Origin: a virus | Lineage: Duplodnaviria; Caudoviricetes | Reading direction: 5' to 3' (one strand) | Length of the DNA stretch: 50,965 nucleotides | IMG/VR virus record: IMGVR_UViG_3300048598_000494 | Coordinates: 1-50,965 of that record | Shown here: positions 3,488 through 50,965 of the stretch, piece after piece | Position numbering within the stretch: the stretch's first letter is position 1 | Layout: each line of letters starts with the position of its first letter | Notes under the pieces: generated by a model | What the model saw: the letters and a program-made list of their open reading frames with translations, nothing else | Told to the model about the DNA's origin: nothing | Database searches by the model: none | Translations under genes and position numbers: made by a program

Positions 3488-3787
3488 TCAGGGGATCGTG
3501 GCGCCTCCGCGAAGTCTCCCGTCGCGGTCGATGTAGAAGCGCACCAGCGCTTCGTGTCGGACGCGGCACACCCGGGCGGCCGTGTAGGCCGCCGCCAGCG
3601 CCTTGACGACGTCGGCCTTGCGACCGCTCGCGAGTGGCGCGGGCGCAGGGACAGGCGACGTCAGTTCCACCGGAGGCGGGTCGGCGCGGACGCCGGCGCC
3701 GATCGGGTCAACGCTGCTTGTTGATCTCGCGCACGCTGCCAGCGTCGAGGCAGTCGCGATCACGATCAGGGTCGACATCAGCCGCAT
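3488..3787 (-). CDS. Outer-membrane spanin lipoprotein (Rz1-like)
   Basis: Lipobox LAAC, Pro-rich, overlaps the 3' end of the Rz-like gene. Confidence 0.75.
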   Translation of the reverse strand: MRLMSTLIVIATASTLAACARSTSSVDPIGAGVRADPPPVELTSPVPAPAPLASGRKADVVKALAAAYTAARVCRVRHEALVRFYIDRDGRLRGGATIP

Positions 3788-4124
3788 GGGTCAGGTCCTC
3801 GAGGGCTTGGGCGAGATCGTCGCGCTCGCGGCGGAGCGCGACGGCGGCTCGTTCGGAGGCGGCGACCGCCTCGGCGTTGGCGCGCGCCTGGCGCTGGCGC
3901 TCCTCGTCGGCGGCGGCCCGCCAAACCTCGCGCTCGGTGGCCTTGCCTTCGCGAACGCCGGCCTCGTGGGCGGCCTCGACGCGCTCGGCGGCATCCCACG
4001 TCGCGGAAACGGCGTGGAAGCCGCAGGCGGCCACGAGAACGACGACGAGCGCCGCCCATCCGACGAGGCGAGCGGCTGCGTCGTCCAATCCGGTCAGCCT
4101 GGCGATGATCGCGATCGGGTTCAT
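3708..4124 (-). CDS. Inner-membrane spanin (Rz-like)
   Basis: N-terminal TM, coiled coil, C-terminal Cys. Confidence 0.75.
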   Translation of the reverse strand: MNPIAIIARLTGLDDAAARLVGWAALVVVLVAACGFHAVSATWDAAERVEAAHEAGVREGKATEREVWRAAADEERQRQARANAEAVAASERAAVALRRERDDLAQALEDLTHAADVDPDRDRDCLDAGSVREINKQR

Positions 4125-6871: not shown

Positions 6872-7657
6872 TCACTCCCATGCGAGATTGATGAGCCCGG
6901 CACGGAACGTGTCGACGCCGTTCGTAGGGGTGATGCGCAGACGGTCGAGGACGCCGCCGAGGGCGATGCTTCCCGAGCCCATCAGCACAACGCCGCCGCT
7001 CGGCAGCGAGAGCTGGTGCTCCGAGGTCCAAACATTGCCGCCCATGTGCGAAAGGATCATTTGGCCGTGCAGGAGGTTGGAGCTCGACGTCGAGTAGATC
7101 CCGAACCCGGCCGTCGGCGAAGCTGTCGCCGGCGTAACACCGTTGGCAATGCCCGTGATCGATCCGACGTAGCCCGTGGTTTGAAAAGAGCCAGAGCCGA
7201 GTTGGACGAGCGGCACGCTCGAACCATTGGTCGCGACGCCGGCGAACATTACCGCCAGTCGCCGCGCCGTCGAGGGGATGCCGACGAAGTCGATGGCGAC
7301 GCCACTCGTCGAATTCACAGCGGCTCCGAGGGAGATACCGATATCTCCCGCCAACGCCGTCACGAACACCTGCGCATCGGACGTCAGGGCGACAGGAGAG
7401 GCGCCGGAGGTGCCGCCCTGGACGACTGTCCGGGTCAGCGTCGGCCCGCTCGACGAATAGGTGCCCTGCCCGAATTCCCAGATCGTTGCGACACCATTGG
7501 AGTAGCCGGATTCGGCCACGTAGGAGACGACGTCGCCATTCGCGACACCGGCAGCCGCGAACGTCTGCGCCCCCGTCACGGCCGATCCGAGCGTGATCGC
7601 GCCGGTACCGGGCGCGCTCGCCACGGTCATCCGGGCGCGGTTGGCCAGCTTTCCCAT
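6872..7657 (-). CDS. Tail fibre / receptor-binding protein 2
   Basis: NRARMT..GTGAITLGSA..WE.G.GTY..TLTRT N terminus; G/S/T rich. Confidence 0.7.
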   Translation of the reverse strand: MGKLANRARMTVASAPGTGAITLGSAVTGAQTFAAAGVANGDVVSYVAESGYSNGVATIWEFGQGTYSSSGPTLTRTVVQGGTSGASPVALTSDAQVFVTALAGDIGISLGAAVNSTSGVAIDFVGIPSTARRLAVMFAGVATNGSSVPLVQLGSGSFQTTGYVGSITGIANGVTPATASPTAGFGIYSTSSSNLLHGQMILSHMGGNVWTSEHQLSLPSGGVVLMGSGSIALGGVLDRLRITPTNGVDTFRAGLINLAWE

Positions 7658-36927: not shown

Positions 36928-37541
36928 CGCGCGGCCCTCGTCAGCAGGGTGATCAGCGTGTCGGCGTCGGCCTTCAGAGCAGGATCGACGGCGAGGCGCG
37001 CTTCGACGGCGCGGCATCCATGGATCACGGTGGTGTGGTCGCGCCGTCCGATACGACGACCGATCTCGCCCATCGTCGCCGTCGTCAGAGTGGCCGCGAT
37101 CCACATCGCCAGCTGGCGCGGGCGGGTCGTCGCCTTGTCCCGTCGAGCCGAGATCAGATCGAGACGCGTCCGGCCGTAGTAGGCAGCGACCGCCCCGACG
37201 ATCATGGCGACCGTCGGGGCGCGCGAAGCCGGGGCGACGGGCGCAGACGCATCGAAGAAGTCACCAGGGGCAAGCGGTCGCTGCACGAGGTGATCGAGCA
37301 CATCGGCGGGAATCGGCTGGCGCTGCGGCGCCGCCTCGACGACCGGCATCGGCTCGTGCGGCACGCTCTTGCGCGCCGGCGGCACCGGGCGCGCCGTGGC
37401 CACGGTCGACGGCCGTGGCACGCGCCCCAGCCGCACGGCGAGATCCATGGCGGCCGTCGTGCGCTCGGCGCGCCGTTCGGCCGCGGTGATCGGCGGCGGA
37501 CCCGCGCGGCCCGCCGAGGACGTCTCGTCGATCGCGGTCAT
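36924..37541 (-). CDS. DnaA domain IV (Bac_DnaA_C) DNA-binding protein
   Basis: S.RR......RQ.AMW....T......IGR..G.RDHTTVIHG signature. Confidence 0.85.
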   Translation of the reverse strand: MTAIDETSSAGRAGPPPITAAERRAERTTAAMDLAVRLGRVPRPSTVATARPVPPARKSVPHEPMPVVEAAPQRQPIPADVLDHLVQRPLAPGDFFDASAPVAPASRAPTVAMIVGAVAAYYGRTRLDLISARRDKATTRPRQLAMWIAATLTTATMGEIGRRIGRRDHTTVIHGCRAVEARLAVDPALKADADTLITLLTRAAR

Positions 37542-37543
37542 GA

Positions 37544-38029
37544 TCAGCCCCCGGCCACCAGTCGGGGCCCCTTGGCGGCGGCGACGTCGGCACGCCAGGC
37601 GTCGAGGCTGCGCGACACGCTGCTCGCGGCGCGGTCCATCTGTTCGGCTTCGGCCGGGCTGAACTTCCCGTCCGCGGCGGCGGCGGCATAGACCGTCATC
37701 ATCTCGCCGACGGCGCGCATCAGCTCGGCGTGCCGCGACATGATCGCCGAAGCATCGCCGCCGGGCGCCTCGTCGGCCTCGGTCAGGCGCCGCCCGCCGA
37801 GCCCCGCCATCGCCGCCGTGACGCACGGCACGCCGCATTCGGCCTCGAGCGCGAGCGCCGCGGTGATCGGGATGATCACCTCCGGCCCGCTCGCCTGCCA
37901 GCGCGACACCTCCGACTTCGACATGAGGGCGATTTCGCCGGCCCGCTCGACGCCGCCGCAGAGCTTGACGAGATCGCGGGTGGCGCTCTTGACCCGGTGG
38001 AACCAGGCATCGGGGATCGGATGGGACAT
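37544..38029 (-). CDS. CII-like regulator
   Basis: K.ATR.LV..CGG, N-terminal HTH, LE..CG.P.VT, DGK.SP.E; start may be 38047. Confidence 0.7.
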   Translation of the reverse strand: MSHPIPDAWFHRVKSATRDLVKLCGGVERAGEIALMSKSEVSRWQASGPEVIIPITAALALEAECGVPCVTAAMAGLGGRRLTEADEAPGGDASAIMSRHAELMRAVGEMMTVYAAAAADGKFSPAEAEQMDRAASSVSRSLDAWRADVAAAKGPRLVAGG

Positions 38030-38050
38030 GAGGCAGACCCTCGGCATGGC

Positions 38051-38094
38051 TTTCCCGTTCCGGGAAAACGCCTCGGCGTTTCCCGTTCCGGGAA
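38051..38094. promoter_or_regulatory. Tandem palindromic operator pair
   Basis: TTTCCCGTTCCGGGAA at 38051 and 38079. Confidence 0.65.
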
Positions 38095-38147
38095 TGAAGT
38101 CTCTGTGTGATGGTCTCGGTGTCGGGCGGGTTCGCCGCCCCTATCGA

Positions 38148-38375
38148 TCAGGAGGTATCATGGCGTCGCTTCTCCGCCTCGACGGCAACCGCCAACCCTC
38201 GCAGCGTGCCGACCAGACGGCGAGCGCTGCGGTCGATTTCGGCCGAAATGAAATCGAAGGGCGACGACCGCTGCGCCAGTCCGCTCCCAACGGAAGCGGA
38301 CACCCCGGCGGGCGAGAAAACCGTCTTGTTGTGGTCGTCGGTCGGCATCGCCAACCCCCTCGGAATGGCAGTCAT
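38148..38375 (-). CDS. Hypothetical protein
   Basis: ATGA-coupled to cro. Confidence 0.5.
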   Translation of the reverse strand: MTAIPRGLAMPTDDHNKTVFSPAGVSASVGSGLAQRSSPFDFISAEIDRSARRLVGTLRGLAVAVEAEKRRHDTS

Positions 38376-38632
38376 GCCGCCTTCTCCTCGGTCACGCCGC
38401 AGGGCCGCGGCACGTCGGCCGGCCAGTCCAGCCCGTCGGGCCAGTTGTCGGAAAACCAGCCGACCGCACGGTCATAGGTGCGGATGCGCCAGTTCAGGCG
38501 CCCGTCGCGCACCTTGTCGAAGAACTGCCAATCGCCACCGGCTCGCTCCGAGAGCGTCGCCGACGACATGCCCGTCGCCGCCATGTAGGCGTCGGCGAGG
38601 GTGACGAGGTGCGTGGTCAGGGTCGTTTCCAT
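38372..38632 (-). CDS. Cro-like regulator
   Basis: Small HTH protein divergent from cI; W.S.NWP....WP..VPRP tail. Confidence 0.75.
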   Translation of the reverse strand: METTLTTHLVTLADAYMAATGMSSATLSERAGGDWQFFDKVRDGRLNWRIRTYDRAVGWFSDNWPDGLDWPADVPRPCGVTEEKAA

Positions 38633-38639
38633 GGGGTCG

Positions 38640-38717
38640 ACCATACCAGACAGTTCTGGATATTCAACCCGGAATTTCTGGAATGCGAGCCGGCCCGAAT
38701 TGCCGGATAAATCTGGT
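38640..38717. promoter_or_regulatory. oR-like switch with three 14-bp operators
   Basis: CCAGACAGTTCTGG 38646, CCCGGAATTTCTGG 38668, CCGGATAAATCTGG 38703. Confidence 0.75.
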
Positions 38718-39383
38718 ATGAAAACCTTGCAGGAAATCGTGACCGCGCGCCTGGACGAGATCGGCCGCGGGCCGGGGACTGCCGAGCGGATCGGCGGTCT
38801 TGGCAAGAACTACGTCTCGGACATCGTCCGCGGTGAAAAGCGCGACGTGCGCTCGTCTTACCTCCCGCGCCTCGCCAAGGCGCTGGATTGGACCGCCGAA
38901 GAGCTGAGGGCGCAGATCGCCGGCACCCAGCCGACGCATGTCGCGATGATGGAGATCGATGCGACCGCCATCGAGCGGCTGCCGCTCGACATCCCCGTGC
39001 TCGGCGTCGCGGCGGCTTCGGTGGCCGGCGCCTTCGTCGTCGACGGCGAGATCGACCGCGTCCGTCGCCCGCCCGGCCTGACCCACGCCAAGAACGTCTA
39101 TGCGCTCTACGTGCGCGGCGATTCCATGAGCCCCAGGTATCGCCCGGGCGAGTTGATCTTCGTCTCGCCCGATCGCCCGGCCGGCGCCGGCGACGACGTG
39201 GTGGTCCAGACGCGAAATCACCCGGGCGCGCCGCTCGAAAGCTGGTTGAAGGAATATGTTCGCTCGGACGGGTCGACCGTCCACACGCGACAACTCAACC
39301 CGCCCGGCGCCGTCGACTTCAGGGCCGACCAGGTCGTCGCCGTTCACCGCGTCCTGACGATGCGCGAGATGTTCGGGGCGTGA
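38718..39383 (+). CDS. CI-like repressor (HTH + S24 peptidase)
   Basis: N-terminal HTH; V.GDSM.P.Y..G and catalytic K; AG cleavage-site candidate. Confidence 0.92.
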   Translation: MKTLQEIVTARLDEIGRGPGTAERIGGLGKNYVSDIVRGEKRDVRSSYLPRLAKALDWTAEELRAQIAGTQPTHVAMMEIDATAIERLPLDIPVLGVAAASVAGAFVVDGEIDRVRRPPGLTHAKNVYALYVRGDSMSPRYRPGELIFVSPDRPAGAGDDVVVQTRNHPGAPLESWLKEYVRSDGSTVHTRQLNPPGAVDFRADQVVAVHRVLTMREMFGA

Positions 39384-39731
39384 TCAGCGCCGCAGCTTGA
39401 TGATTCCCGGCACCGACGAGCCGTTCGGCCCATAGAGCAACATGCCCGCGACGCAGGCCGCGTCGCCGTCCTTCCCCGACCAAGCCCGGATGTCGGACCG
39501 CGCCTGCTCCAAAGCGATCGCCTTGTGGTCGGGGCGCTGCAGATCGGCGCCGTTGCCGACCAGCATGAAGGCGAGTGCCGTCTGGTTGACGATCAGGCGC
39601 GAACAGAGCTTCTCGAGCGCCATGACCTCGCCGGCATGGCGCAAGGCGTTCTCGGCGGATTCGGCAAGGACCGGGCTCGCGCAGCCCGTCGCCACGGCGA
39701 CGAGCAGTGCTCGGACGACGACGCTCGACAT
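39384..39731 (-). CDS. Exported hypothetical protein
   Basis: Signal peptide ending VLA, Cys pair, GAGGT RBS. Confidence 0.65.
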   Translation of the reverse strand: MSSVVVRALLVAVATGCASPVLAESAENALRHAGEVMALEKLCSRLIVNQTALAFMLVGNGADLQRPDHKAIALEQARSDIRAWSGKDGDAACVAGMLLYGPNGSSVPGIIKLRR

Positions 39732-39735
39732 TGCA

Positions 39736-39999
39736 TCACCTCTTGCCGCGCTTGATCCGGGATGCCTTTCCGGCTCCCCCGCCGGAGGACGCCCCGGCAC
39801 CGTCGGCGTATGCGGCGTCACCCGACGAGCAGGTCTGTTTCGACGCGCTGATCGATCCGTCGTTGCAGACGAATTTCGCGCCGGAGCAATGGGCTACGCC
39901 GCCCTTCTTGCCGGAACACGGGGTGTTTCTGGCATCGGCCGACGAAGTGGCCGACAGCAGGGCAAAAACGGCCAGAGCGAAGGGAATTGCTAGTCTCAT
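39736..39999 (-). CDS. YdcA-like small exported Cys-rich protein
   Basis: Signal peptide then N.PCSGKKGG..HC.G.KFVCNDGSISASK..C. Confidence 0.8.
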   Translation of the reverse strand: MRLAIPFALAVFALLSATSSADARNTPCSGKKGGVAHCSGAKFVCNDGSISASKQTCSSGDAAYADGAGASSGGGAGKASRIKRGKR

Positions 40000-40054
40000 G
40001 GCGACCTCCATGCATCCGGAGGTGGAGACTATCAAAGCGAACAAGCATCGCATT

Positions 40055-40105
40055 CCAGATGTTTCTGGATATCCAGTTGACTTCCAGAAATGGCTGGCAT
40101 AACGT
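40055..40105 (+). promoter_or_regulatory. pL/oL-like early promoter with two operators
   Basis: CCAGATGTTTCTGG 40055, TTGACT 40077, CCAGAAATGGCTGG 40084, TAACGT 40100 (17-nt spacer). Confidence 0.75.
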
Positions 40106-40138
40106 CGCTCTCCATCGGCGCATCCCGCGCCGTCGGAG

Positions 40139-40558
40139 ATGCGAATGTCTGCACCGCGCCTCGCCCCGTCCAACGAGACCCCGCCCGAGATCATCGATCG
40201 CCGCTCGATCACCGCGCCCACGGCGATCGTCGAGAGCATGGCGCGCGACATCCTCGCCGCCCGCCGCGACGGTCAGCATGCGGTTCTGATCGACCTCACC
40301 GAACTGGGTTGGACTCGCGCCCAGGCGCAGCGCTTCGGCTCGCAGGCCCACGCCGCCGCGCTCGACCCGCGCGTCGCGACGCAGGACGCGGTCGAGCGTC
40401 TGGCGGTGCGCGAGGGCAAGCACCTCGTCGCCGTCGCCGGCATCGACGCTGCCCGCATCATGGCGGCGGGCGAAGCGGCCGTCGCCGAGGCGCTCGCCGT
40501 CCCCGTGACCGGCGACATGGCCCAGATGATCGACGACATCGGAGGCGACGCGGCATGA
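40139..40558 (+). CDS. Hypothetical early protein
   Basis: First ORF after pL. Confidence 0.65.
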   Translation: MRMSAPRLAPSNETPPEIIDRRSITAPTAIVESMARDILAARRDGQHAVLIDLTELGWTRAQAQRFGSQAHAAALDPRVATQDAVERLAVREGKHLVAVAGIDAARIMAAGEAAVAEALAVPVTGDMAQMIDDIGGDAA

Positions 40559-40719
40559 CCCGACCTTCGATCCTGCTCCACCGTTTCGAAGACGCCCTCG
40601 AGGACGTCGCCCGCAAGCGCCGCTGGTGGATCGGCGAACTGATCCTCTTTGCCGGCATCTGCGCCGAGGTCTGGATCGGCATCGCCCGCACCGCCGCCCT
40701 CTATCACGGGGGACCGTGA
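40555..40719 (+). CDS. Small membrane protein
   Basis: GGAGG RBS, ATGA coupling, one TM. Confidence 0.55.
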   Translation: MTRPSILLHRFEDALEDVARKRRWWIGELILFAGICAEVWIGIARTAALYHGGP

Positions 40720-40721
40720 CC

Positions 40722-40844
40722 ATGTCGAAGCGGACCTTCGGAGATCGGCTGTTCGATTACGCGATCAGCGCCACCGGCATCGCGTTCATCGTGGCCGTGA
40801 TGTCCTCCCTCGCGCGCTTCACCGTCTGGCTGTGGGGATACTGA
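40722..40844 (+). CDS. Small membrane peptide
   Basis: 40 aa, one TM, 2-nt spacing. Confidence 0.5.
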   Translation: MSKRTFGDRLFDYAISATGIAFIVAVMSSLARFTVWLWGY

Positions 40845-40846
40845 CC

Positions 40847-41068
40847 ATGCTCCACGAGTCTTGCGACATCGTCGAGGATGCCGGCGGCTGGACCTGCCGG
40901 ACCTGCCGCGCGCACTGGCGGACCTCGCTCCAGCCCGACACCTGCGCCGAGGCCCGCGTTCCGACCGACGCGCCGACGGATCGCTCGGTGCTGATCGTCC
41001 TGGCGGTCTTCGGCATCGGCGCCGCGCTCTGCCTCGCCGCCGGTCTGGCGGGAGGCCTCGCGCCATGA
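40847..41068 (+). CDS. Small Cys-containing membrane protein
   Basis: CxxC plus C-terminal TM. Confidence 0.55.
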   Translation: MLHESCDIVEDAGGWTCRTCRAHWRTSLQPDTCAEARVPTDAPTDRSVLIVLAVFGIGAALCLAAGLAGGLAP

Positions 41069-41358
41069 CCCGCCCCCGTCTCTCCGAGACCCGCATCGGC
41101 ATCCTGCGCGCCATGCTGTCGCGCCGCGCGCCGCTGATCCTCGGGAATCGCACTTGGTTCGTGCGCGGCTGGTCGACGTTCGTTTCGCCCGCCGACGTCG
41201 AGGCCCTGCGCAACGGCGGATGGATCGAGCCCCCGGCCGATGCGCCGGCGCGCGGCAGTCACCGCCTCTTCGTCCTCACCGAGGCCGGACGCGATTTCGC
41301 CGCCCGCGCGGCCGCCCGCGCGATCCCGCCGTCCCGTGCCGAGGAGATCGCCGCATGA
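41065..41358 (+). CDS. Hypothetical winged-helix-like protein
   Basis: AL...GWI....LTEAGR motif; GGAGG RBS. Confidence 0.55.
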   Translation: MTRPRLSETRIGILRAMLSRRAPLILGNRTWFVRGWSTFVSPADVEALRNGGWIEPPADAPARGSHRLFVLTEAGRDFAARAAARAIPPSRAEEIAA

Positions 41359-41519
41359 GCATGGTGCCCACCGACGTCGCCGAACGCGCGCTCTCGGTCA
41401 TCGTCGTCATCGTCGACGAGATCCGGCAAGAGGCCGAGGCTCTTTTCGACCTCGCCGCGCGCCTCGAGGACGAGGCCGCCCGTCTTCGCTGCCCCGACAC
41501 CCGAGGAGAGAGCGCATGA
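41355..41519 (+). CDS. Hypothetical protein
   Basis: GAGGAG RBS, ATGA coupling on both sides. Confidence 0.55.
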   Translation: MSMVPTDVAERALSVIVVIVDEIRQEAEALFDLAARLEDEAARLRCPDTRGESA

Positions 41520-42256
41520 CGCGCATGCAGTCGTCCACCGGCCTCGCCATCGACCTCGCCGAGCCCGACCTCTCGATGATCGACATCGAGAAGGACATCG
41601 CCGGCCCGCTGTCGCGCCTCGTGCGCTTCGGCGGCCACCGCGTCGAGGTGCCCGGCGAAGCGCTGCCGCATCCCTACACGGTGGCGCAGCACTGCGTCGT
41701 CGGCGCGGATGCCCTCTTCGAAGAGACCGGCGACGTCGTCGCGGCCCTCGCGTTCCTGACGCACGACGCGCACGCGGCGCTGATCGGCGACCTGACCACG
41801 CCCGCGGCGATGGCCATCGAATACTGGGTCGAGGCTGCGATGCGGATCGCTGGCGGACCCGAGTTCACCCGGGCCGTGCGCTCGGCGCTCGGCACCGGCG
41901 TCGTCCGCGCCGGCCTCGATGGGCTCAAGGCCTCGCTCGACACGCAGATCCACCGCCTCGCCGGTCTCCCCCACCCGCTGCCGGCGCCGATCGCCCGGGC
42001 GGTGAAGGAGATGGACGAGCGGATGCTCGACCTCGAGCGTCGCCTGATCCTCGGCCAGCGGCTGCGCAATGCGACCGTCGACGAACTCTGGGGCGCGGTC
42101 GCGAAGGCCAAGCCGGTGCGGATCCGCGGCGGCCTGATCCCGTGGACGCAGCGCCAGGCCCGCACCGAATGGATGCGCCGGTGGACGATGTGGACCGGCG
42201 CGGCGAACGCACCCCGGGCCATCGCCCCGCGCCGCAAGCCCGCCACCGCCGCCTGA
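41516..42256 (+). CDS. HD-domain phosphohydrolase-like protein (YfbR/YfdR-like)
   Basis: RFGGH, YTVAQH, HDAHAALIGD..TP, VK..D. Confidence 0.85.
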   Translation: MTRMQSSTGLAIDLAEPDLSMIDIEKDIAGPLSRLVRFGGHRVEVPGEALPHPYTVAQHCVVGADALFEETGDVVAALAFLTHDAHAALIGDLTTPAAMAIEYWVEAAMRIAGGPEFTRAVRSALGTGVVRAGLDGLKASLDTQIHRLAGLPHPLPAPIARAVKEMDERMLDLERRLILGQRLRNATVDELWGAVAKAKPVRIRGGLIPWTQRQARTEWMRRWTMWTGAANAPRAIAPRRKPATAA

Positions 42257-42283
42257 ACACCCGCGACCGACAGGAGATCGCCC

Positions 42284-42586
42284 GTGAACATCGCCACTCG
42301 TACCGCTTTCGACCAGTCGACGGCCAGCGGCCCGCTGCTGACCACCGACGAGATCGCCGCCGCGCGCCGTGCGCTCGGTCTGCCGAACCGCCACAAGGTC
42401 TCGCACCGCAACCACCACCTCGGCCTCAGCCATCCCGACTGGCAGGCGATGGAGGCGCGCGGCCTCGCCACGGTGCGCCGGTCGTCCGAGGACGGCGCCC
42501 CCAGCCTGTGGCGCCTGACGCGCCGCGCCGCCGAGGCCGCCCTGCTGCCCGGCGAGCGCCTCAACCCCGACGACTTCCCCGCCTGA
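42284..42586 (+). CDS. Hypothetical protein
   Basis: AGGAG RBS with GTG start; R.ALGL, SHRNH. Confidence 0.65.
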   Translation: MNIATRTAFDQSTASGPLLTTDEIAAARRALGLPNRHKVSHRNHHLGLSHPDWQAMEARGLATVRRSSEDGAPSLWRLTRRAAEAALLPGERLNPDDFPA

Positions 42587-42587
42587 C

Positions 42588-42953
42588 ATGAGGCAACCCG
42601 TGTCGAAGATTCGCAACACCACCCAGATGCTCGGCCTGATCGGCGACGGCGACCTGCTCGCCGAACTCGACGAGAAGATGGTCGCGCTCAACACCACGCT
42701 CGTCGCCCAGACGGCCGGTCGCAAGAAGACCAAGGCCAAGGGCTCGATCACGCTGAAGCTCGACTTCGTCGTCGAGGACGGGACGGTGACGATCACCCCC
42801 GACATCGCGGTGAAGGAGCCCAAGCCGGCCCGCTCGACCGGGTTCTTCTGGGTCCGCCCCGACGGCACCCTGTCGACCGAACACCCGTCGCAGACCCGCA
42901 TGGACTTCAGCGAACGCGCCCGCACCGGCGACGCGGTCGTCACCTCCGCCTGA
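42588..42953 (+). CDS. Hypothetical protein, usual upstream partner of DUF2303
   Basis: KG.ITLKL, P...R...FFW...DG.L...HP.Q..M; start may be GTG 42600. Confidence 0.75.
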   Translation: MRQPVSKIRNTTQMLGLIGDGDLLAELDEKMVALNTTLVAQTAGRKKTKAKGSITLKLDFVVEDGTVTITPDIAVKEPKPARSTGFFWVRPDGTLSTEHPSQTRMDFSERARTGDAVVTSA

Positions 42954-42986
42954 CGCCGCCCACCCCTCTAGAACCGGAGCCACCAC

Positions 42987-44006
42987 ATGCCCGTCGAATC
43001 CACCCAGGCCGAAGCCATCAAGGAACTCGTCGCCCTCGCGTCCCAGGCGCGCGGCCTCGAGATCATCACCATCGAGAACGTCGCGGAAGCCCCCGGCATT
43101 CCCGAGCAGATCCCGATCGCCGTCCGTCACGGGACGGCGCCGGAACTGATCAACCTCGCGTCCTTCTTCGATTCCTGGCGCGATCGTCCGTCGGCGAAGC
43201 GCGGCACCGCGAAGGCGCTGGCGCTCGCCTCCTTCATCGACCTGACGAACCGTCACAAGACGATGCACTCGGTGGTCTTCGCGAAGACCGATTGGCGCGC
43301 GCCGTCCCTGCTCGCCGTGATCGACTATCACGAGATCAACGACGTTCCCGAGTTCAAGCCCGAGGACATCACCATCACGCCCGCCGGCGCGTGTGATCCG
43401 GCCGACGCCGCCGAGATGGCGGCCGCCTTCGTCTACAACCCGCCCCGTCCGGACAACATGCGTCATCGCATCGGCTACGACTACCCGCTCTCCGACGACT
43501 GGAAGTTCTGGGTCCTGAACGACGGCAAGGCCTTCGATCAGGGAGACTTCGCGGCCCTGGTCGAGGACCGGATCGCCGATCTCGCCGCGCCGGAGGACGA
43601 GGAGCGCTCGGTGCTCGAGGAGAAGTTCGAGACCAAGATCGCCTCGCCGGCGGACCTGATCCGCCTGTCGCGCGGTCTTCAGGTCAACGTCGAATCCAAG
43701 ATCAAGAACATCGTCTCGCTGCAGAGCGGCGCGGCGCAGATCCAGTTTGAGGAGGTCCACAAGGACAGCGACGGCCAGCCGCTGACCGTGCCCGGCCTCT
43801 TCATCCTGGCCATCGCGCCCTTCGCCTCGGGCGCGTCGATCCGCCTGCCGGTGCGCCTGCGCTACCGCAAGAAGGGCGGCACCATCGAGTGGTTCTACCA
43901 GATGTATCGGCCCGACCAGTACATCACCAATCGCCTGCGGCTCGACATCGCCGAGGTTGCCGAGAAGACCGGCCTGCCGGTCTACGAGGGCACCCCCGAG
44001 GCCTGA
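42987..44006 (+). CDS. DUF2303 (YfdQ-like) protein
   Basis: SFI...NR, AVIDYH, Q.DFA..VED, RLRYR, VYEG.P. Confidence 0.85.
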   Translation: MPVESTQAEAIKELVALASQARGLEIITIENVAEAPGIPEQIPIAVRHGTAPELINLASFFDSWRDRPSAKRGTAKALALASFIDLTNRHKTMHSVVFAKTDWRAPSLLAVIDYHEINDVPEFKPEDITITPAGACDPADAAEMAAAFVYNPPRPDNMRHRIGYDYPLSDDWKFWVLNDGKAFDQGDFAALVEDRIADLAAPEDEERSVLEEKFETKIASPADLIRLSRGLQVNVESKIKNIVSLQSGAAQIQFEEVHKDSDGQPLTVPGLFILAIAPFASGASIRLPVRLRYRKKGGTIEWFYQMYRPDQYITNRLRLDIAEVAEKTGLPVYEGTPEA

Positions 44007-44095
44007 TCCCCCGCGCCCCGCGCTCGCCTCCCGAGCGCCACTCCACCGCCCCGGTCGATCACCGGCCGGGGCGGGCTCTTCGAAAGGATCCGAAC

Positions 44096-44263
44096 ATGGC
44101 GGGCCTCATCTATCACCTTCGATACGCGCTACGGCTCCGCAGTAGGGGAGGTCTGACGCTCATTCAGGCCTGGACGTATCCGATGCCGAACCCCGACGAC
44201 CGTGGCGATCCGATCGAAGATGCCGACGACGAGATGGACGCCTTCTCCGACTGTGTCGGCTGA
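44096..44263 (+). CDS. Small hypothetical protein
   Basis: AAGGA RBS; flanked by hairpins at ~44046-44074 and ~44274-44296. Confidence 0.5.
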   Translation: MAGLIYHLRYALRLRSRGGLTLIQAWTYPMPNPDDRGDPIEDADDEMDAFSDCVG

Positions 44264-44328
44264 CCGTCTCGCTCTGCCGGCGCCCTCCGCCGGCAGCACC
44301 GGACGATCACCATCGTGAGGAACAGGAA

Positions 44329-45306
44329 ATGGCCGAAACGATCAGCAGCGGCGGAAGGATCGGAAACGATCTCATGTGGATCGGAGCCGACCGCGTCAAG
44401 ATCTCAGGAAGCGACGAGGTCGTCGTTCTCACCGTGAGGAAGAACAATTGCGGCGGCGAGGTGATCGCCAGAGACATTGCGTCGCCCGCGCATGTATCGG
44501 CCCTTCGCGACATCGCCCGTCGGATCGAGAACCTGTTGGTCGAGGTCGAATTCCAGGCCGTCGCCACACCAGCCGCCGAGGCCCTCGAGGGCGTCGCCCT
44601 CGCGATCTCGACCGAGGAGACCCGCTATTACCTGAACGGCGTCTACATCCACCTCGGCGGCGCCGAGAGCCGTCTGCTGACCTTCGTCGCCACCGACGGC
44701 CACCGCCTCTCGCTCGTCCGCCGCGACTGTCCCGACGGCGCCGACGGCATGCCCGGCGTCATCGTGCCGCGCAAGACGGTCGCCGAGGTGTCGAAGCTCT
44801 GCCGCGGCAACCCGAAGGAGGCACGCCTCTCGATCTCGGACACCAAGATCCGGTTCGAGATCGGCGACGTGACCCTCGTCTCGAAGCTGATCGACGGCAC
44901 CTTTCCGGAATACGACCGCGTCATCCCGGCCAAGACGGCGACAACGGCGTCGGCCGTGATCCAGCGCGAGGCCACGCGCGACGCCGTCGACCGCGTGATG
45001 ACCATGAACGCGGAGCGCGGACGGGCCGTCAAGGTGACGATCGACGGCGCGACGATGGAAATGCGCCTCGACGTTTCAGATCCCGACAGAGGAAATGCCA
45101 CCGAGACGGTCGGGCTGGTCAGCGCCGAGCCGATCGACATCGCGATTGGACTCAACGGACGATACCTCGTCGAAGCCCTCGACGCCCTCGGCGGCGACAC
45201 GGTCTCCATCGCCGCCACCGACCCGGGCTCGCCCGTTCTGATGACCCCCGCCGACGATCTCGCAGGCACCCGCCGCCTGATCGTCGTCATGCCGATGAGG
45301 GTGTGA
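44329..45306 (+). CDS. DnaN-like beta sliding clamp lacking domain I
   Basis: AISTEETRYYLNG, ATDGHRL, VPRK, SKLIDGTFP.Y.RVIP, MPMRV; first ~85 aa not recognisably DnaN. Confidence 0.88.
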   Translation: MAETISSGGRIGNDLMWIGADRVKISGSDEVVVLTVRKNNCGGEVIARDIASPAHVSALRDIARRIENLLVEVEFQAVATPAAEALEGVALAISTEETRYYLNGVYIHLGGAESRLLTFVATDGHRLSLVRRDCPDGADGMPGVIVPRKTVAEVSKLCRGNPKEARLSISDTKIRFEIGDVTLVSKLIDGTFPEYDRVIPAKTATTASAVIQREATRDAVDRVMTMNAERGRAVKVTIDGATMEMRLDVSDPDRGNATETVGLVSAEPIDIAIGLNGRYLVEALDALGGDTVSIAATDPGSPVLMTPADDLAGTRRLIVVMPMRV

Positions 45307-45309
45307 ACC

Positions 45310-45981
45310 ATGGCCAAGCTGGACACCGATGCCGTCGACCGCATTCGCAGGGTGATCGAGGCCGAAGAGGCCATGGGAGACCAGAAACTCGCGATCGCGC
45401 TGACGCTCTTGCTCGAGTGGCATGAAAGGCAGGGCGAGATGTTCCAGTCGCGGGTTCGCCCGTGGTTGTTCACCTGTTTCGGCATCGAGATCGTCGCCGA
45501 TCGAACGGAGCGCAATCACCGCTTTCTCGAGGAAGCGCTCGAACTGGTGCAGGCTCTCGGCGGCACCCGCAGCGAGGCACACCAGCTCGTCGACTATGTC
45601 TTCGACCGCCCCGTCGGCGATCCAGGCCAGGAGGTCGGCGGCGTCATGGTGACGCTCGCCGCGCTCTGCCTCGCCGCCGGCCTCGACATGCACGAAGCCG
45701 GGGACACCGAACTCACCAGGGTCTGGACCAAGGTCGAGGCTATCAGGGCGAAGCAAGCGGCGAAGCCGAAGCACGGGCCGCTGCCGGGGCAGGTTCGGCT
45801 GGTGCGGCACAAGAAGCGCGGATCCACCTATCGCGTCGTCGGAACGGCCCTGCTGCAAGCCGCCGCGCCCGTCGGCGAGGCATGCGCGATGGTCGTCTAT
45901 CGCGACGTCGACAAGGGAACCCTCTGGGTTCGACCGGAATCGGAGTTTGACGACGGGCGTTTCGAGGAGGTCGGCGCATGA
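45310..45981 (+). CDS. MazG-like domain fused to DUF1653-like domain
   Basis: RFLEEALELVQ...QEVGGV; RHKK.G..Y.V..MVVY....LWVRP..EF. Confidence 0.65.
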   Translation: MAKLDTDAVDRIRRVIEAEEAMGDQKLAIALTLLLEWHERQGEMFQSRVRPWLFTCFGIEIVADRTERNHRFLEEALELVQALGGTRSEAHQLVDYVFDRPVGDPGQEVGGVMVTLAALCLAAGLDMHEAGDTELTRVWTKVEAIRAKQAAKPKHGPLPGQVRLVRHKKRGSTYRVVGTALLQAAAPVGEACAMVVYRDVDKGTLWVRPESEFDDGRFEEVGA

Positions 45982-46241
45982 CCGCCCAGTTCACCGCGAA
46001 GTGTCGCGTCGAAGGCTCCCGCCTCATCCTGTGCTCCGCCATCGAGCCGGCCGTCGAGGTCGGTGGGCAGGGCGCCCGACGGCAGGGTCTGAAGATGACG
46101 ACGCGCGTGCACCTCGAGACGGACCGGACGCGCCAGGCGCTCGCCCTGATCTCCGGCGACTACGGCCGCGGCGTGCTCGTCAACTACTGCCCATTCTGCG
46201 GCGAGAAGATCGTGACCACCTTCGACGAGAAAGGCGCGTGA
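45978..46241 (+). CDS. Hypothetical protein with CPFCG
   Basis: GAGG RBS, ATGA coupling, NYCPFCG. Confidence 0.65.
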   Translation: MTAQFTAKCRVEGSRLILCSAIEPAVEVGGQGARRQGLKMTTRVHLETDRTRQALALISGDYGRGVLVNYCPFCGEKIVTTFDEKGA

Positions 46242-46501: not shown

Positions 46502-47104
46502 ATGACCGATCGTCCGATTCCCTTCTCCGATCCGATGGTGTCGGCGCTGCTCGCCGGCCGTAAGACGCAGACGCGGCGTGCCGGCGGTCTCGTCGTCGGG
46601 ATTTCCAGCGAACAGGCGGAGAGCCTCGATCTCGACGGATGGAGCGTCGGCGAGTGCGCCGGCGGGATGTGGGCCGCGAGGGTCTCTCCCGGTGACCGCC
46701 TCTGGGTGCGCGAGGCCTATTGGCAGCGCGGCCATTGGGTCGAGACGCCCGGCCTGACGAAGCAAGGTCGCATCAAGTGGGCCTTCGTCCCGGCCGACGA
46801 CGACGTCCGTTTCGACCGCCCCGACGGCGAGGTGCGCCTCGGCCGCTTCATGCCGCGCAAGTACAGCCGCATCACGCTCGACGTGACCGAGCTGCGGGTC
46901 GAGCGCCTGCAGAGCATCAGCCGTGGTGACGCGATGGAAGAGGGCTGTCCCTTCCCGAACATGGCGAAGGGACCGAACCCCGTCGACTGGTACGCCGACC
47001 TCTGGAACGTCATCAACGGCGAGGGTGCGTGGGAAAAGAACCCCTTCGTCACCGCCATCACCTTCCGCGTCCACCTCTGCAACATCGACCGCATGGAGGC
47101 CTGA
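46502..47104 (+). CDS. ASCH/PUA-like phage protein
   Basis: G.KTQTRR, GDRLWVRE, MPR..SRITL, RVERLQ.IS. Confidence 0.8.
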   Translation: MTDRPIPFSDPMVSALLAGRKTQTRRAGGLVVGISSEQAESLDLDGWSVGECAGGMWAARVSPGDRLWVREAYWQRGHWVETPGLTKQGRIKWAFVPADDDVRFDRPDGEVRLGRFMPRKYSRITLDVTELRVERLQSISRGDAMEEGCPFPNMAKGPNPVDWYADLWNVINGEGAWEKNPFVTAITFRVHLCNIDRMEA

Positions 47105-47109
47105 CGACC

Positions 47110-47550
47110 ATGTCCGGCAGCGTCAACAAAGTCATCCTGATCGGTCACCTCGGGCGCGACCCGGAGGTCCGCCGCACCCAGTCCGGCGCGCCGATCGTCA
47201 CCCTCTCGGTGGCGACGTCCGAGTCCTGGCGCGACCGCGCCTCCGGCGAGCGCCGCGAGAAGACCGAGTGGCACCGCGTGGTGGTCTTCACCGAAGGCCT
47301 CGCCAAGGTCGCCGAGCAGCACCTGAAGAAGGGCATGCGGGTCTATGTCGAGGGCAAGCTCGTCACCCGCGAATGGGCCGACCAGCAGGGCGGAAAGCGC
47401 TGGACGACCGAGATCGTCCTCAACGACTTCCGGTCGAACATCACCATGCTGGACCGCCAGCAGGGCAACCGCCCACCGGAAGGCGACGCCGACGACTACG
47501 CCGGGCCGATGTCCGGCGGCTACGACGACGATCCGATGGGAGGGCAGTGA
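47110..47550 (+). CDS. ssb: Single-stranded DNA-binding protein
   Basis: SVNKVILIG.LG.DPE, ATSESW, TEWHRVV, VYVEGKL. Confidence 0.95.
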   Translation: MSGSVNKVILIGHLGRDPEVRRTQSGAPIVTLSVATSESWRDRASGERREKTEWHRVVVFTEGLAKVAEQHLKKGMRVYVEGKLVTREWADQQGGKRWTTEIVLNDFRSNITMLDRQQGNRPPEGDADDYAGPMSGGYDDDPMGGQ

Positions 47551-49527: not shown

Positions 49528-49812
49528 ATGGCGAACACCACGGCACCAGCCACCAGATCAGCCGCACGGCCTGCCCCGCGCCGAGGCCTGCGGCGCGCCG
49601 AGGCGGCCGACTACATCGGCGTGTCTCCTTCCAAGTTCGACGGCCTCGTCGCCGATGGGCGGATGCCGGCGCCCCGGCTTCTCGACGGCTGCGTGATATG
49701 GGATGTCCTGGAGATCGACTCCGCGTTTGACGATCTGCCGCGCAAGGGTCACCCTGAGGCGCCCACGGCGCCCGCCTCGACCTCGGACGTGTGGAGCAAT
49801 CCGCGTGTCTGA
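49528..49812 (+). CDS. Excisionase / AlpA-like HTH protein
   Basis: EAA.YIGVS...F...V..G.MP.P; directly upstream of int. Confidence 0.8.
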   Translation: MANTTAPATRSAARPAPRRGLRRAEAADYIGVSPSKFDGLVADGRMPAPRLLDGCVIWDVLEIDSAFDDLPRKGHPEAPTAPASTSDVWSNPRV

Positions 49813-49822
49813 GGATCTCGCC

Positions 49823-50965
49823 ATGCCGCGGCGCCTGCCGAAATACTGCGTCGAGGACGTCGATCGCCACGGGAATGCGCGCGTCTATCTTCGCCGCAAC
49901 GGCCGCAAGATCCGGATCGTCGGCACGCCGTGGACGGAGCCTTTCATGACCGCCTACGCCGCGGCGCTGCAGACGATGCAGCGGCCGGCGATCGAGGCCG
50001 GCGAGCGGGTCGAGATCAAGCGCTCGGCGCCCGGCACGTTGCGCTGGCTCGGCGAGCAGTATTTCGCGGGATGTGCCGACTACCTCGCCCTCGAGCCGTC
50101 GACGCGCGACGGCTATCGCCGCAGCCTCGAGGGCGCGTGGGAAGAGCCGATCGAACCGGGATCGGTGCACCTCTTCGGCGACATGCCGATCGCCCGGGCG
50201 ACGCCGAAGGCGCTGCGCGTGCTGCGCGACCGCAAGATGGACGCCAAGGAAGCCGGCAACGCGCGCGTCAAGGCGCTGCGCGGGCTCTTCCGCTTCGCGG
50301 TCGAATACGACCACGCGACGACGAACCCGGCCGATTCCGTTCCCTATTTCAAGACCCGGTCGAAGGGCCACCACACCTGGACGGTGGCCGAAGTCGAAGC
50401 CTATGAAGCGCGCCACCCGATCGGCACGACAGCGCGGCTCGCGCTGGCGATCCTGCTCTACACCGGCGTCCGACGGTCCGACGCCGTGCGGATCGGGCCG
50501 CAGCACGCTTCGGACGGGTGGCTGCGGTTCACCGCCTTCAAGAACCGGAATCGCTCGCCCGTCGAGATCAACATCCCGATCCTGCCGACGCTCGCCGCGG
50601 TGATCGAGGGATCGGCGAAAGGGCACCTCGCCTATCTGGTCACGAAGTTCGGAAAGCCCTACTCGATGGGCGGATTTTCCGGCCAGTTCAAGGACTGGTG
50701 CGTCCAGGCCGGATTGCCGCACTGCTGCGCCCACGGCCTGCGCAAGGCCGGAGCGACGCTCGCCGCCGAGGCCGGCGCAACCGAGCGCCAGCTGATGGCG
50801 ATCTTCGGATGGTCCGACGCCAAGACGCCGAGCATCTACACCCGCGCCGCCGACCGAAAGCGCATGGCCGGTGCCGGCATGGGGTTGATCGAAACGGGGC
50901 GAAGCGAGTACAACGAAGTCCCACCGGCCGCCGAGATGGCGTCCAGTGGGACAAAAACAGCCTGA
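49823..50965 (+). CDS. int: Tyrosine integrase
   Basis: TG.RRSD, K, HGLRK, GW, IYT catalytic set. Confidence 0.95.
   Translation: MPRRLPKYCVEDVDRHGNARVYLRRNGRKIRIVGTPWTEPFMTAYAAALQTMQRPAIEAGERVEIKRSAPGTLRWLGEQYFAGCADYLALEPSTRDGYRRSLEGAWEEPIEPGSVHLFGDMPIARATPKALRVLRDRKMDAKEAGNARVKALRGLFRFAVEYDHATTNPADSVPYFKTRSKGHHTWTVAEVEAYEARHPIGTTARLALAILLYTGVRRSDAVRIGPQHASDGWLRFTAFKNRNRSPVEINIPILPTLAAVIEGSAKGHLAYLVTKFGKPYSMGGFSGQFKDWCVQAGLPHCCAHGLRKAGATLAAEAGATERQLMAIFGWSDAKTPSIYTRAADRKRMAGAGMGLIETGRSEYNEVPPAAEMASSGTKTA

What the first reader, a model, noticed from the sequence alone, without database searches (positions are those of the whole stretch)
44329..45306. Two-domain beta-clamp with domain I replaced by an unrelated N terminus
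Seen: DnaN similarity starts only near AISTEETRYYLNG and runs intact to MPMRV; the first ~85 codons look unrelated and less GC-rich, yet the frame is open. Known: DnaN rings close through domain I-domain III contacts, the partner-peptide pocket lies between domains II and III, and PCNA/T4 gp45 are trimers of two-domain subunits. Inferred: a decoy or dominant-negative clamp that titrates host Pol III, TLS polymerases or HdaA, a trimeric clamp, or simply a recent recombinant.
Basis: partly seen in the sequence, partly recalled or inferred. Interest (0 to 1): 0.7.

Follow-up and report, generated by a model that had tools for sequence, protein, structure and literature searches.

The report
Deletion-made fusion truncating a prophage clamp
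A 422-base deletion in a resident prophage has welded a small neighbouring gene onto the last two thirds of the phage's DNA sliding-clamp gene, which is a one-off mutational accident and shows no sign of being a new kind of clamp.

Summary
ORF 44329..45306 (325 aa) has clamp domains II and III only (Pfam, residues 84-314). Its first ~85 codons are unrelated to DnaN and lower in G+C.

The cause is a deletion. A syntenic prophage contig (L006, about 96% identical either side of the junction) carries two separate, ATGA-overlapping genes: an 87-aa small ORF and a full-length 377-aa dnaN. The window lacks 422 bases between two copies of a 10-base imperfect repeat (CGCCGAGGCC / CGCCGCGGCC). This joins small-ORF codon 85 in frame to about codon 134 of dnaN.

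The N terminus is therefore a nearly whole member of a family of stand-alone 71-89 aa proteins. It is predicted as four strands plus a helix, not a clamp domain.

The fused form is a singleton:
- a search of 5.8 billion protein clusters found only the window's own protein;
- contigs of 4 of 4 public runs carry the intact form;
- 80 of 80 listed IMG/VR relatives include domain I.

Domains II-III show no decay, and the partner-peptide pocket is intact in sequence. The domain-I half of the ring interface is gone, so the protein cannot work as a clamp.

The decoy reading is not excluded, but nothing supports it. The junction could not be checked against source reads. Interest is low.

The parts
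44329..45306 (+). The fused ORF, 325 codons plus stop
   Evidence: the ORF listing. Its only exact match in the protein collection is the window's own protein P0001.
44317..44321 (+). Shine-Dalgarno-like GAGGA, 7 bases before the ATG. It is inherited from the small ORF.
   Evidence: Read from the sequence. The same upstream stretch is 96.6% identical in L006.
44329..44583 (+). Codons 1-85, which are 85 of the 87 codons of a stand-alone small ORF (four strands plus a C-terminal helix; no named family)
   Evidence: 96% identical to the 87-aa P0121 and to the L006 ORF that ends at 7259. 17 of 21 library hits are 71-89 aa proteins. AF2 pLDDT 86, E6-11 E16-25 E29-38 E45-50 H53-82. No Pfam or PHROG hit.
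44574..44583 (.). Deletion junction: the one retained copy of a 10-base imperfect direct repeat. The crossover lies within GGCC at 44580-44583.
   Evidence: Window 44574-44583 aligns both to L006 7241-7250 and to L006 7663-7672, 9 of 10 bases shared. 422 bases of L006 are absent from the window.
44584..45303 (+). Codons 86-325, derived from dnaN: clamp domain II without its first strand, plus domain III, with the partner-peptide pocket and the C-terminal MPMRV
   Evidence: Pfam. PDB sequence match. Model residues 71-325 superpose on E. coli beta 124-366, Z 28.5, rmsd 1.9 A, 243 aligned. 17 of 18 pocket positions are identical to E. coli.
44922..45161 (+). Divergent patch inside domain III, 63-80% identical to L006 against 90-100% elsewhere. 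It looks like mosaic recombination and is unrelated to the deletion.
   Evidence: Identity profile in 60-column steps.

Best explanation
The ORF is the product of one recent, private 422-base deletion in the early (replication) operon of an integrated temperate phage of a Rhizobiales-like host. In the ancestral arrangement an 87-codon small ORF ended in an ATGA overlap with a full-length three-domain phage dnaN. Slippage or illegitimate recombination between two copies of a 10-base imperfect repeat removed three things: the last two codons and stop of the small ORF, all of clamp domain I, and the first strand of domain II. The two reading frames happened to come into register (a 1-in-3 chance). 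The result is a 325-aa chimera: the small four-strand-plus-helix protein followed by clamp domains II-III. SHOWN: the deletion, the junction, the singleton status, and the sequence integrity of domains II-III. INFERRED: the domain-I half of the head-to-tail dimer interface (E. coli I78, R103, F106) is gone, so the protein cannot close a ring and is not a processivity factor. The lesion persists because early lytic genes are silent in a lysogen. On induction the phage would have to rely on the host clamp or replicate poorly. Any binding of host clamp partners to the still-intact pocket would be a by-product rather than a selected function.
For: Synteny: L006 1-6698 matches window 37424-44100 at 88.9% identity. 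L006 6929-7250 matches window 44262-44583 at 96.6%. L006 7663-8399 matches window 44574-45316 at 87%. In L006 the small ORF (stop at 7257-7259) and the 377-aa dnaN (start 7256) are separate genes. Pfam domain I sits at L006-contig positions 7256-7615, inside the span missing from the window. The junction lies at a 9-of-10 repeat. Synonymous divergence from L006 is the same on both sides of the junction: dS 0.094 for the small-ORF part, 0.092 and 0.096 for the dnaN parts. That fits one background rather than two parents. Singleton status: among proteins of 178-569 aa in 5.8 billion clusters, only the window's own P0001 carries residues 1-85 (1 hit of 221 candidates). Contigs of 4 of 4 runs laid (X1, X3, X4, X8) leave the window at 44583 with the intact-form continuation (ACCCCATGAAGCTC...), or carry 422 extra letters there (X3 record 9, X8 record 18), and none bridges the junction. 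80 of 80 listed IMG/VR relatives of the full-length clamp match from residue 19 or earlier. 79 of the 80 genome-contig loci match only from residue 69-93 on, and the one that matches from residue 1 is L006, over 1391 bases instead of 975. Phages 16-3, RR1-A and AmM-1 carry 370-379 aa clamps, and RR1-A has the same DUF2303...dnaN...SSB...DUF5131 module. The lesion is recent: there is 1 private change at 89 sites invariant in ten relatives, and that change is the junction residue itself.
Against: The frame is open and keeps a ribosome-binding site. All clamp-binding-pocket residues are kept. In the AF2 model the tail of the small ORF (residues 71-83) takes the place of the deleted first strand of domain II, so a folded two-domain module is plausible (pLDDT there is only about 60). 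These points leave room for a working protein. Pairwise omega of 0.2-0.37 shows no relaxation, but it mostly reflects time before the deletion. No run holding the window's own sequence was found (best share of sampled words 0.41), so reads could not confirm the junction.
Confidence: 0.78

Rival explanations
1. Functional neo-protein: the fusion is kept because it acts as a soluble decoy or dominant-negative clamp. Its intact pocket would titrate Pol III alpha, delta, Hda or TLS polymerases. Alternatively its domain III would cap host clamp monomers, or it would tether the small four-strand-plus-helix protein to clamp partners.
For: Open frame with a Shine-Dalgarno-like site. 17 of 18 E. coli pocket positions are identical, and the 18th (V344) is one of two positions the review calls unconserved. 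Domains II-III are modelled confidently and superpose on solved clamps at Z 28.5. There is only 1 private change at 89 invariant sites. A monomeric E. coli beta variant still binds delta (passage of PMC11139829 seen).
Against: The fusion is a singleton in every collection searched. Integrity is equally expected for a very recent lesion. An in-frame outcome has a 1-in-3 chance. The domain III interface residues differ from E. coli (I272/L273 correspond to T225/M226), so capping of a host clamp is untested. There are no expression data.
Confidence: 0.07
2. Assembly artefact or chimeric contig: the 422 bases exist in the real prophage and were lost in assembly.
For: Only one record holds the joined form. 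P0001 has 1 member sequence on 2 contigs, which may be one assembly filed twice. No run with the window's own sequence could be laid. All four runs laid show the intact form.
Against: The repeat at the junction is 10 bases with a mismatch, which I judge too short for a k-mer collapse (my inference, not tested). Both flanks show the same divergence from L006. The neighbouring ORFs checked have the same length as in L006: 100 aa and 121 aa.
Confidence: 0.1
3. Illegitimate recombination between two different phages, not a deletion within one genome, joined a small ORF of one to the dnaN of another.
For: The region is mosaic. Cassettes differ from L006 at 44101-44261 and 45317-46237, and dnaN holds a divergent 240-base patch. 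The whole-segment identities differ: 96.6% against 87%.
Against: Outside the patch, identity is 90-100% on both sides of the junction and dS is equal at about 0.09. The small ORF and dnaN are already adjacent in L006 and in L086.
Confidence: 0.04
4. A PCNA/gp45-like trimeric ring built of two-domain subunits.
For: The subunit has two clamp domains.
Against: The form derives from a three-domain gene by a private deletion. No family with this architecture exists in the searches made.
Confidence: 0.01

Closest known systems
Small ORF + full-length dnaN pair of the prophage on L006 (Rhizobiales MAG contig, genome contigs)
   Same: Same gene order and the same sequences: 96.6% DNA identity over the small ORF, 90-100% over dnaN outside one patch, and the same upstream DUF2303 gene.
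   Different: L006 has two genes (87 aa and 377 aa, with an ATGA overlap). The window has one ORF that lacks the 422 bases between them.
Phage-encoded beta sliding clamps of alphaproteobacterial temperate phages (Rhizobium phage 16-3 p081, RR1-A RHXG_00041, Aurantimonas phage AmM-1 gp50; PHROG 947)
   Same: 42-44% identity over domains II-III. RR1-A also has the replication module with DUF2303, SSB and DUF5131.
   Different: Those proteins are 370-379 aa with all three domains. Here domain I is absent.
Bacterial DnaN (E. coli beta, e.g. 2pol, 7azk; Bartonella 6deg/6ptr; Caulobacter 5wce)
   Same: Domains II-III share the fold: Z 28.5, rmsd 1.9 A, 243 residues aligned to E. coli 124-366. The pocket residues are conserved.
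   Different: There is no domain I, so the I78/R103/F106 half of the dimer interface listed in the review is missing.
Monomeric E. coli beta variant I272A/L273A
   Same: A clamp protein that cannot close a ring yet still binds the delta subunit (passage of PMC11139829). This is the nearest precedent for what a non-ring fragment could still do.
   Different: It is an engineered point mutant with three domains. The window's protein is a natural deletion with a foreign N-terminal domain.
PCNA and T4 gp45 (two-domain, trimeric clamps; recalled, not fetched)
   Same: Two clamp domains per chain.
   Different: No homology beyond the general clamp fold was tested. The window's two-domain state arose by deletion, and no trimer is supported.

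Membership tests
Beta sliding clamp (DnaN; Pfam PF00712 + PF02767 + PF02768) | Three tandem clamp domains in one chain | tested here: not met
   Only PF02767 (residues 84-194) and PF02768 (residues 197-314) match. PF00712 has 0 matches in the record at E <= 1, while the control genomes ring.
Beta sliding clamp (DnaN) | Homology and fold of domains II and III | tested here: met
   E 1e-28 and 1.8e-14. 51 PDB clamp sequences match at E <= 1e-10. Z 28.5 to 7azk_B.
Beta sliding clamp (DnaN) | Clamp-binding-motif pocket residues (subsites I and II as listed in PMC11139829) | tested here: met
   17 of 18 positions are identical to E. coli, with V344 replaced by G300. This is sequence conservation only; binding was not tested.
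Beta sliding clamp (DnaN) | Head-to-tail homodimer ring through domain I-domain III contacts | tested here: not met
   The domain-I interface positions (E. coli I78, R103, F106) fall in the deleted part. Ring formation itself cannot be tested with these tools.
Two-domain trimeric clamps (PCNA / gp45 type) | A recurrent family of two-domain protomers that trimerise | tested here: not met
   No other protein has this architecture. The 248-aa 'two-domain' database entries begin at an internal Met of host-type DnaN on 1-3 kb contigs. Trimerisation itself is inconclusive.
Unnamed small four-strand-plus-helix phage protein family (P0121-P0139, alignment A2) | Sequence match over the whole 71-89 aa protein, with G8, W17, L59 and A63 invariant | tested here: met
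   Residues 1-85 match P0121 at E 8.4e-44 (96% identity) and 16 further small proteins at E 4e-9 to 8e-4.
Unnamed small four-strand-plus-helix phage protein family | A stand-alone gene with its own stop codon | tested here: not met
   The last 2 codons and the stop are deleted, and the frame runs on into dnaN.
PUR-alpha / PC4 / Whirly-like ssDNA-binding fold (for the N-terminal part) | Four-stranded sheet plus helix repeat that superposes on solved members | tested here: inconclusive
   Best Foldseek rows are Pur-alpha 3nm7 (E 0.43-0.66) and PC4-like 5a4n, 1pcf and 4bg7 (E 0.7-1.5). VIA gives Z 5.0 for 3k44 and 3nm7, tied with many beta-propeller blades.

The most novel reading that the evidence does not exclude
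The in-frame chimera is made on prophage induction and folds. The small ORF's tail stands in for the lost first strand of domain II. The protein then acts as a non-ring clamp fragment whose intact peptide pocket sequesters host clamp partners (Pol III alpha, delta, Hda, TLS polymerases), or brings the small, possibly ssDNA-binding, domain to them. That would be a naturally arisen dominant-negative clamp.
Probability: 0.06. Interest if true: 0.5.

Novelty: new member of a known kind. Interest (0 to 1): 0.15.

Why it matters
As it stands it matters little. It is one more mutational lesion in a resident prophage, and a clean example of a microhomology deletion creating an in-frame gene fusion. 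It is also a caution that a 'domain replaced by an unrelated N terminus' may be the neighbouring gene welded on.

Two by-products may be worth a look. First, a small, unnamed four-strand-plus-helix protein family is translationally coupled to phage dnaN in two diverged prophages. Second, nature has supplied a ready-made domain II-III clamp fragment with an intact partner pocket. That fragment could be used to ask what a non-ring clamp does in a cell.

Tried and rejected
I used the search for related loci instead.

I asked whether the N terminus comes from the 169-aa hypothetical gene that lies between DUF2303 and dnaN in phage RR1-A. BLASTP gave E 0.05, which is no relation.

With the 85-aa part alone it found no relative in viral contigs (0 of 27 stretches).

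The protein atlas gave only scores of 0.77-0.82 to viral hypothetical clusters, below the level that means anything.

Alignment A3 contained an out-of-frame reference (L006:7663), which was my slip. In A4 MAFFT scattered the small proteins over the clamp part. Neither was used for folding. A5 holds only P0121 for the N terminus, so the N-terminal pLDDT of 47-61 in the fusion model reflects a shallow alignment.

Complex prediction with three copies of the whole protein scored 0.00 and 0.07 against a mark of 0.42. The verdict was 'no answer', and the controls were not run. This is evidence neither for nor against a trimer.

VIA wide search of the small-protein model: no clamp chain appeared among the 50 rows shown. 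That is an absence only.

The look-up of sequencing runs: no run held half or more of the sampled words (best 0.41). The parts of the stretch without cover (44116-44223, 45034-45087) are not interpreted.

Literature: two full-text searches listed no paper on a natural two-domain DnaN or a truncated phage clamp. I saw only the listings and abstract openings, and this is not an exhaustive check. From PMC11139829 I read the passages returned by 'find'. No supplements were seen; its Fig. S3 on pocket conservation could refine.

The search of earlier findings returned four notes on other places of the window, and none bears on this ORF. The ORF list was not used.

Full report
WHAT IS THERE. The window is an IMG/VR provirus record of 50,965 bases that CheckV rates 98% complete. 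ORF 44329..45306 on the + strand is 325 codons long. It has an in-frame stop 61 codons upstream and no other start codon in between. A GAGGA site lies 7 bases before the ATG.

Pfam places the central clamp domain at residues 84-194 (E 1e-28, profile positions 9-116 of 116) and the C-terminal clamp domain at residues 197-314 (E 1.8e-14). It finds nothing for domain I. The domain I model finds nothing anywhere in the record at E <= 1, although the control genomes ring. PHROG 947, the phage processivity factor family, is matched only over profile positions 136-365 of 368. Solved clamps align from about residue 83 onward. The first 220 bases of the ORF have 0.59-0.61 G+C, against 0.69-0.71 further on.

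CONTEXT. The ORF sits in the early operon of a temperate phage. Upstream are an S24-peptidase repressor-like gene (38601..39380), a PHROG 204 gene (42588..42953) and a DUF2303 gene (42987..44006). Downstream come genes of unknown function, then an SSB (47029..47550), an SNase-like nuclease, a DUF5131 gene and an integrase (49703..50965). Rhizobium phage RR1-A has the same DUF2303...dnaN...SSB...DUF5131 set. Phages 16-3, RR1-A and AmM-1 all encode clamps of 370-379 aa.

WHERE THE N TERMINUS COMES FROM. Of 80 loci returned from 185,579 species genomes, 79 match the query only from residue 69-93 on. One locus, L006, matches residues 1-325, but over 1391 bases where 975 would be expected. L006 is a 10.6-kb Rhizobiales MAG contig.

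L006 is syntenic with the window:
- L006 1-6698 matches window 37424-44100 at 88.9%.
- L006 6929-7250 matches window 44262-44583 at 96.6%.
- L006 7663-8399 matches window 44574-45316 at 87%.

In L006 there are two genes. The first is a small ORF whose product begins MAETISSGG and ends ...AAEATP. It is 87 aa from that Met, and its stop is at 7257-7259. The second is a 377-aa dnaN beginning MKLSIARR at 7256, so the two overlap by ATGA. Pfam domain I lies at 7256-7615 of that contig.

The base-by-base comparison shows that the window follows the small ORF up to ...GCCGCCGAGGCC (window 44583). It then continues with dnaN from ...CTCGAGGGC. Window 44574-44583 matches both L006 7241-7250 (CGCCGAGGCC) and L006 7663-7672 (CGCCGCGGCC). 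The window thus lacks 422 bases between two copies of a 10-base, 9-of-10 direct repeat and keeps one copy. The A at 44579 is the left copy's base, so the crossover lies in the GGCC that follows.

The two genes are in different frames in L006, and 422 is not a multiple of three. The deletion happens to put them in register, which is a 1-in-3 outcome. It removes the last two codons and stop of the small ORF, all of domain I, and about the first eight positions of domain II.

THE N-TERMINAL PART IS A WHOLE SMALL PROTEIN. It is not a clamp domain. A full HMMER pass of residues 1-85 over 1.84 billion representatives gave 21 hits at E <= 0.001. Seventeen of them are proteins of 71-89 aa, matched end to end. 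They include P0121 (87 aa, 96% identity). The other four are long proteins of 689-4270 aa with short, repeated matches.

The aligned family has invariant G8, W17, L59 and A63. It has no Pfam or PHROG family. With that alignment AlphaFold2 gives a confident model (mean pLDDT 86) of four strands followed by one long helix. The clamp domains II and III in the fusion model instead interleave helices with their strands.

Fold searches give only weak rows. Foldseek's best are Pur-alpha and PC4-like ssDNA binders at E 0.4-1.5. VIA gives Z of at most 5.6, mostly single propeller blades. The ssDNA-binder likeness is therefore a lead only.

An HMM of the family, run over six-frame ORFs of all 166 records held at that point, hit only three places: the window, L006, and L086 at 3721-3987. 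In L086 the hit lies 13 bases before a full-length dnaN whose domain II-III part is about 52% identical to the window's. The small gene and phage dnaN are thus neighbours in two diverged prophages, while most phage dnaN genes lack it (79 of the 80 IMG/VR loci).

IS THE FUSED FORM FOUND ELSEWHERE? No.
- Searching residues 1-85 against proteins of 178-569 aa in the 5.8-billion-cluster collection returns only the window's own P0001 (1 of 221 candidates). Among shorter proteins it returns only P0121 (1 of 6).
- The ten closest clamp homologues (81-57% identity over residues from about 84 to 325) are 374-377 aa with all three Pfam domains.
- A scan of IMG/VR with one of them found at least 594 relatives. 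All 80 listed match from residue 19 or earlier through residue 375-376.
- Several 248-aa 'two-domain' entries begin at a conserved internal Met of host-type DnaN and come from 1-3 kb contigs. They are gene-call artefacts.
- One 297-aa entry (P0020) has another unrelated N terminus, on a 1671-base contig. It too is a singleton.

No public run holds the window's own sequence (best share of words 0.41). When contigs of four runs from four studies were laid on 43900-45500, all four showed the intact arrangement. X1 and X4 have loose ends behind 44583 reading ACCCCATGAAGCTC..., and X1 has one before 44574 reading into dnaN. X3 record 9 and X8 record 18 each carry the two flanks 422 letters further apart than in the window. 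None bridges the junction.

HOW OLD, AND ANY DECAY? Outside one 240-base patch (44922-45161, 63-80% identity), the window and L006 are 90-100% identical in every 60-column step on both sides of the junction. Nei-Gojobori dS is 0.094, 0.092 and 0.096 for the small-ORF part and the two dnaN parts, with omega of 0.20-0.37 (only 7-15 differences per segment). Equal dS on both sides favours a deletion within one genome over a join of two different phages.

At 89 alignment columns invariant in ten relatives, the window has one private change: the A-to-E at the junction itself. The relatives have 0-9 such changes. So there is no decay beyond the deletion. This fits either a very recent event or continued selection, and the data cannot separate the two.

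WHAT THE PRODUCT COULD AND COULD NOT DO. The review PMC11139829 (passages) lists the E. coli pocket residues. Subsite I is R152, L155, T172, G174, H175, R176, L177, P242, R246, V247, V360 and M362. Subsite II is H175, N320, Y323, V344, M362, P363, M364 and R365. The review also names the dimer-interface residues I78, F106, I272 and L273, plus R103, E298 and E304.

Aligned with E. coli beta taken from the K-12 record, all 18 pocket positions fall in the retained part. Seventeen are identical, and V344 is G300 (a position the review calls unconserved). I78, R103 and F106 fall in the deleted part. I272/L273 correspond to T225/M226.

The AF2 model of the whole chimera has pLDDT 80-95 over residues 85-325 and 47-61 over the N-terminal part, where the alignment is shallow. 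Residues 71-325 superpose on E. coli beta 124-366 with Z 28.5, rmsd 1.9 A and 243 residues aligned. In the model, then, the small ORF's tail (strand 73-78) stands in for the deleted first strand of domain II.

Inference: without domain I the head-to-tail ring cannot form, so the protein is not a processivity clamp. If it folds, it could still bind clamp-binding motifs. A three-copy complex prediction gave no answer (reported under Tried and rejected).

VERDICT. The feature is real in the record and fully explained. It is a private microhomology deletion that fused a neighbouring small gene to a phage dnaN lacking domain I. It belongs with phage-encoded beta clamps as a damaged member, and there is no evidence for a new two-domain clamp class.

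The most novel reading still open is a naturally arisen decoy clamp fragment, at about 6%. The main uncertainty on the facts is that the junction could not be checked against source reads; I put an assembly artefact at about 10%. Interest is low (0.15).

The side observations may deserve a separate look: the small protein family coupled to phage dnaN, and the mosaic patch inside dnaN.

Noticed in passing
window 44329-44583; L006 6996-7259; L086 3721-3987: An unnamed family of 71-89 aa phage proteins, predicted as four strands plus a long helix (pLDDT 86), with no Pfam or PHROG hit. It lies directly 5' of phage dnaN in two diverged prophages: an ATGA overlap in L006 and a 13-base gap in L086. 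Fold matches to Pur-alpha and PC4-like ssDNA binders are weak.
   Followed up: partly
window 44922-45161: A 240-base patch inside clamp domain III is only 63-80% identical to L006, while the rest of the gene is 90-100% identical. It looks like mosaic recombination or gene conversion between phage dnaN alleles.
   Followed up: partly
window 44101-44261 and 45317-46237, against L006 6699-6928 and 8400-8619: Cassette swaps between otherwise syntenic prophages. A 55-codon ORF in the window replaces a 75-codon ORF in L006 upstream of the small ORF. Downstream of dnaN, two ORFs (223 and 87 aa) replace a 76-aa ORF.
   Followed up: no
protein P0020 (297 aa, 1671-base contig): Another singleton DnaN with domains II-III only. 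Its unrelated N terminus is hydrophobic and looks like a signal peptide. It may be a chimeric contig or a second independent fusion.
   Followed up: no
proteins P0107, P0052, P0053, P0065, P0031: Five database 'two-domain' DnaN entries of exactly 248 aa all start at a conserved internal Met of host-type DnaN and come from contigs of 1-3 kb. They are truncated gene calls and do not form a family.
   Followed up: yes
G001 (genome of L006): C107:5310-5669, C301:7256-7615, C372:4897-5253: The 3.7-Mb MAG that holds L006 has three dnaN domain-I matches, presumably the host gene plus two mobile-element copies.
   Followed up: no
window 44539-44583 (residues 71-85): By chance the tail of the small ORF resembles the start of clamp domain II. 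HMMER extends E. coli clamp alignments back to query residue 66-69, and AF2 models a strand at residues 73-78 in place of the deleted one.
   Followed up: partly
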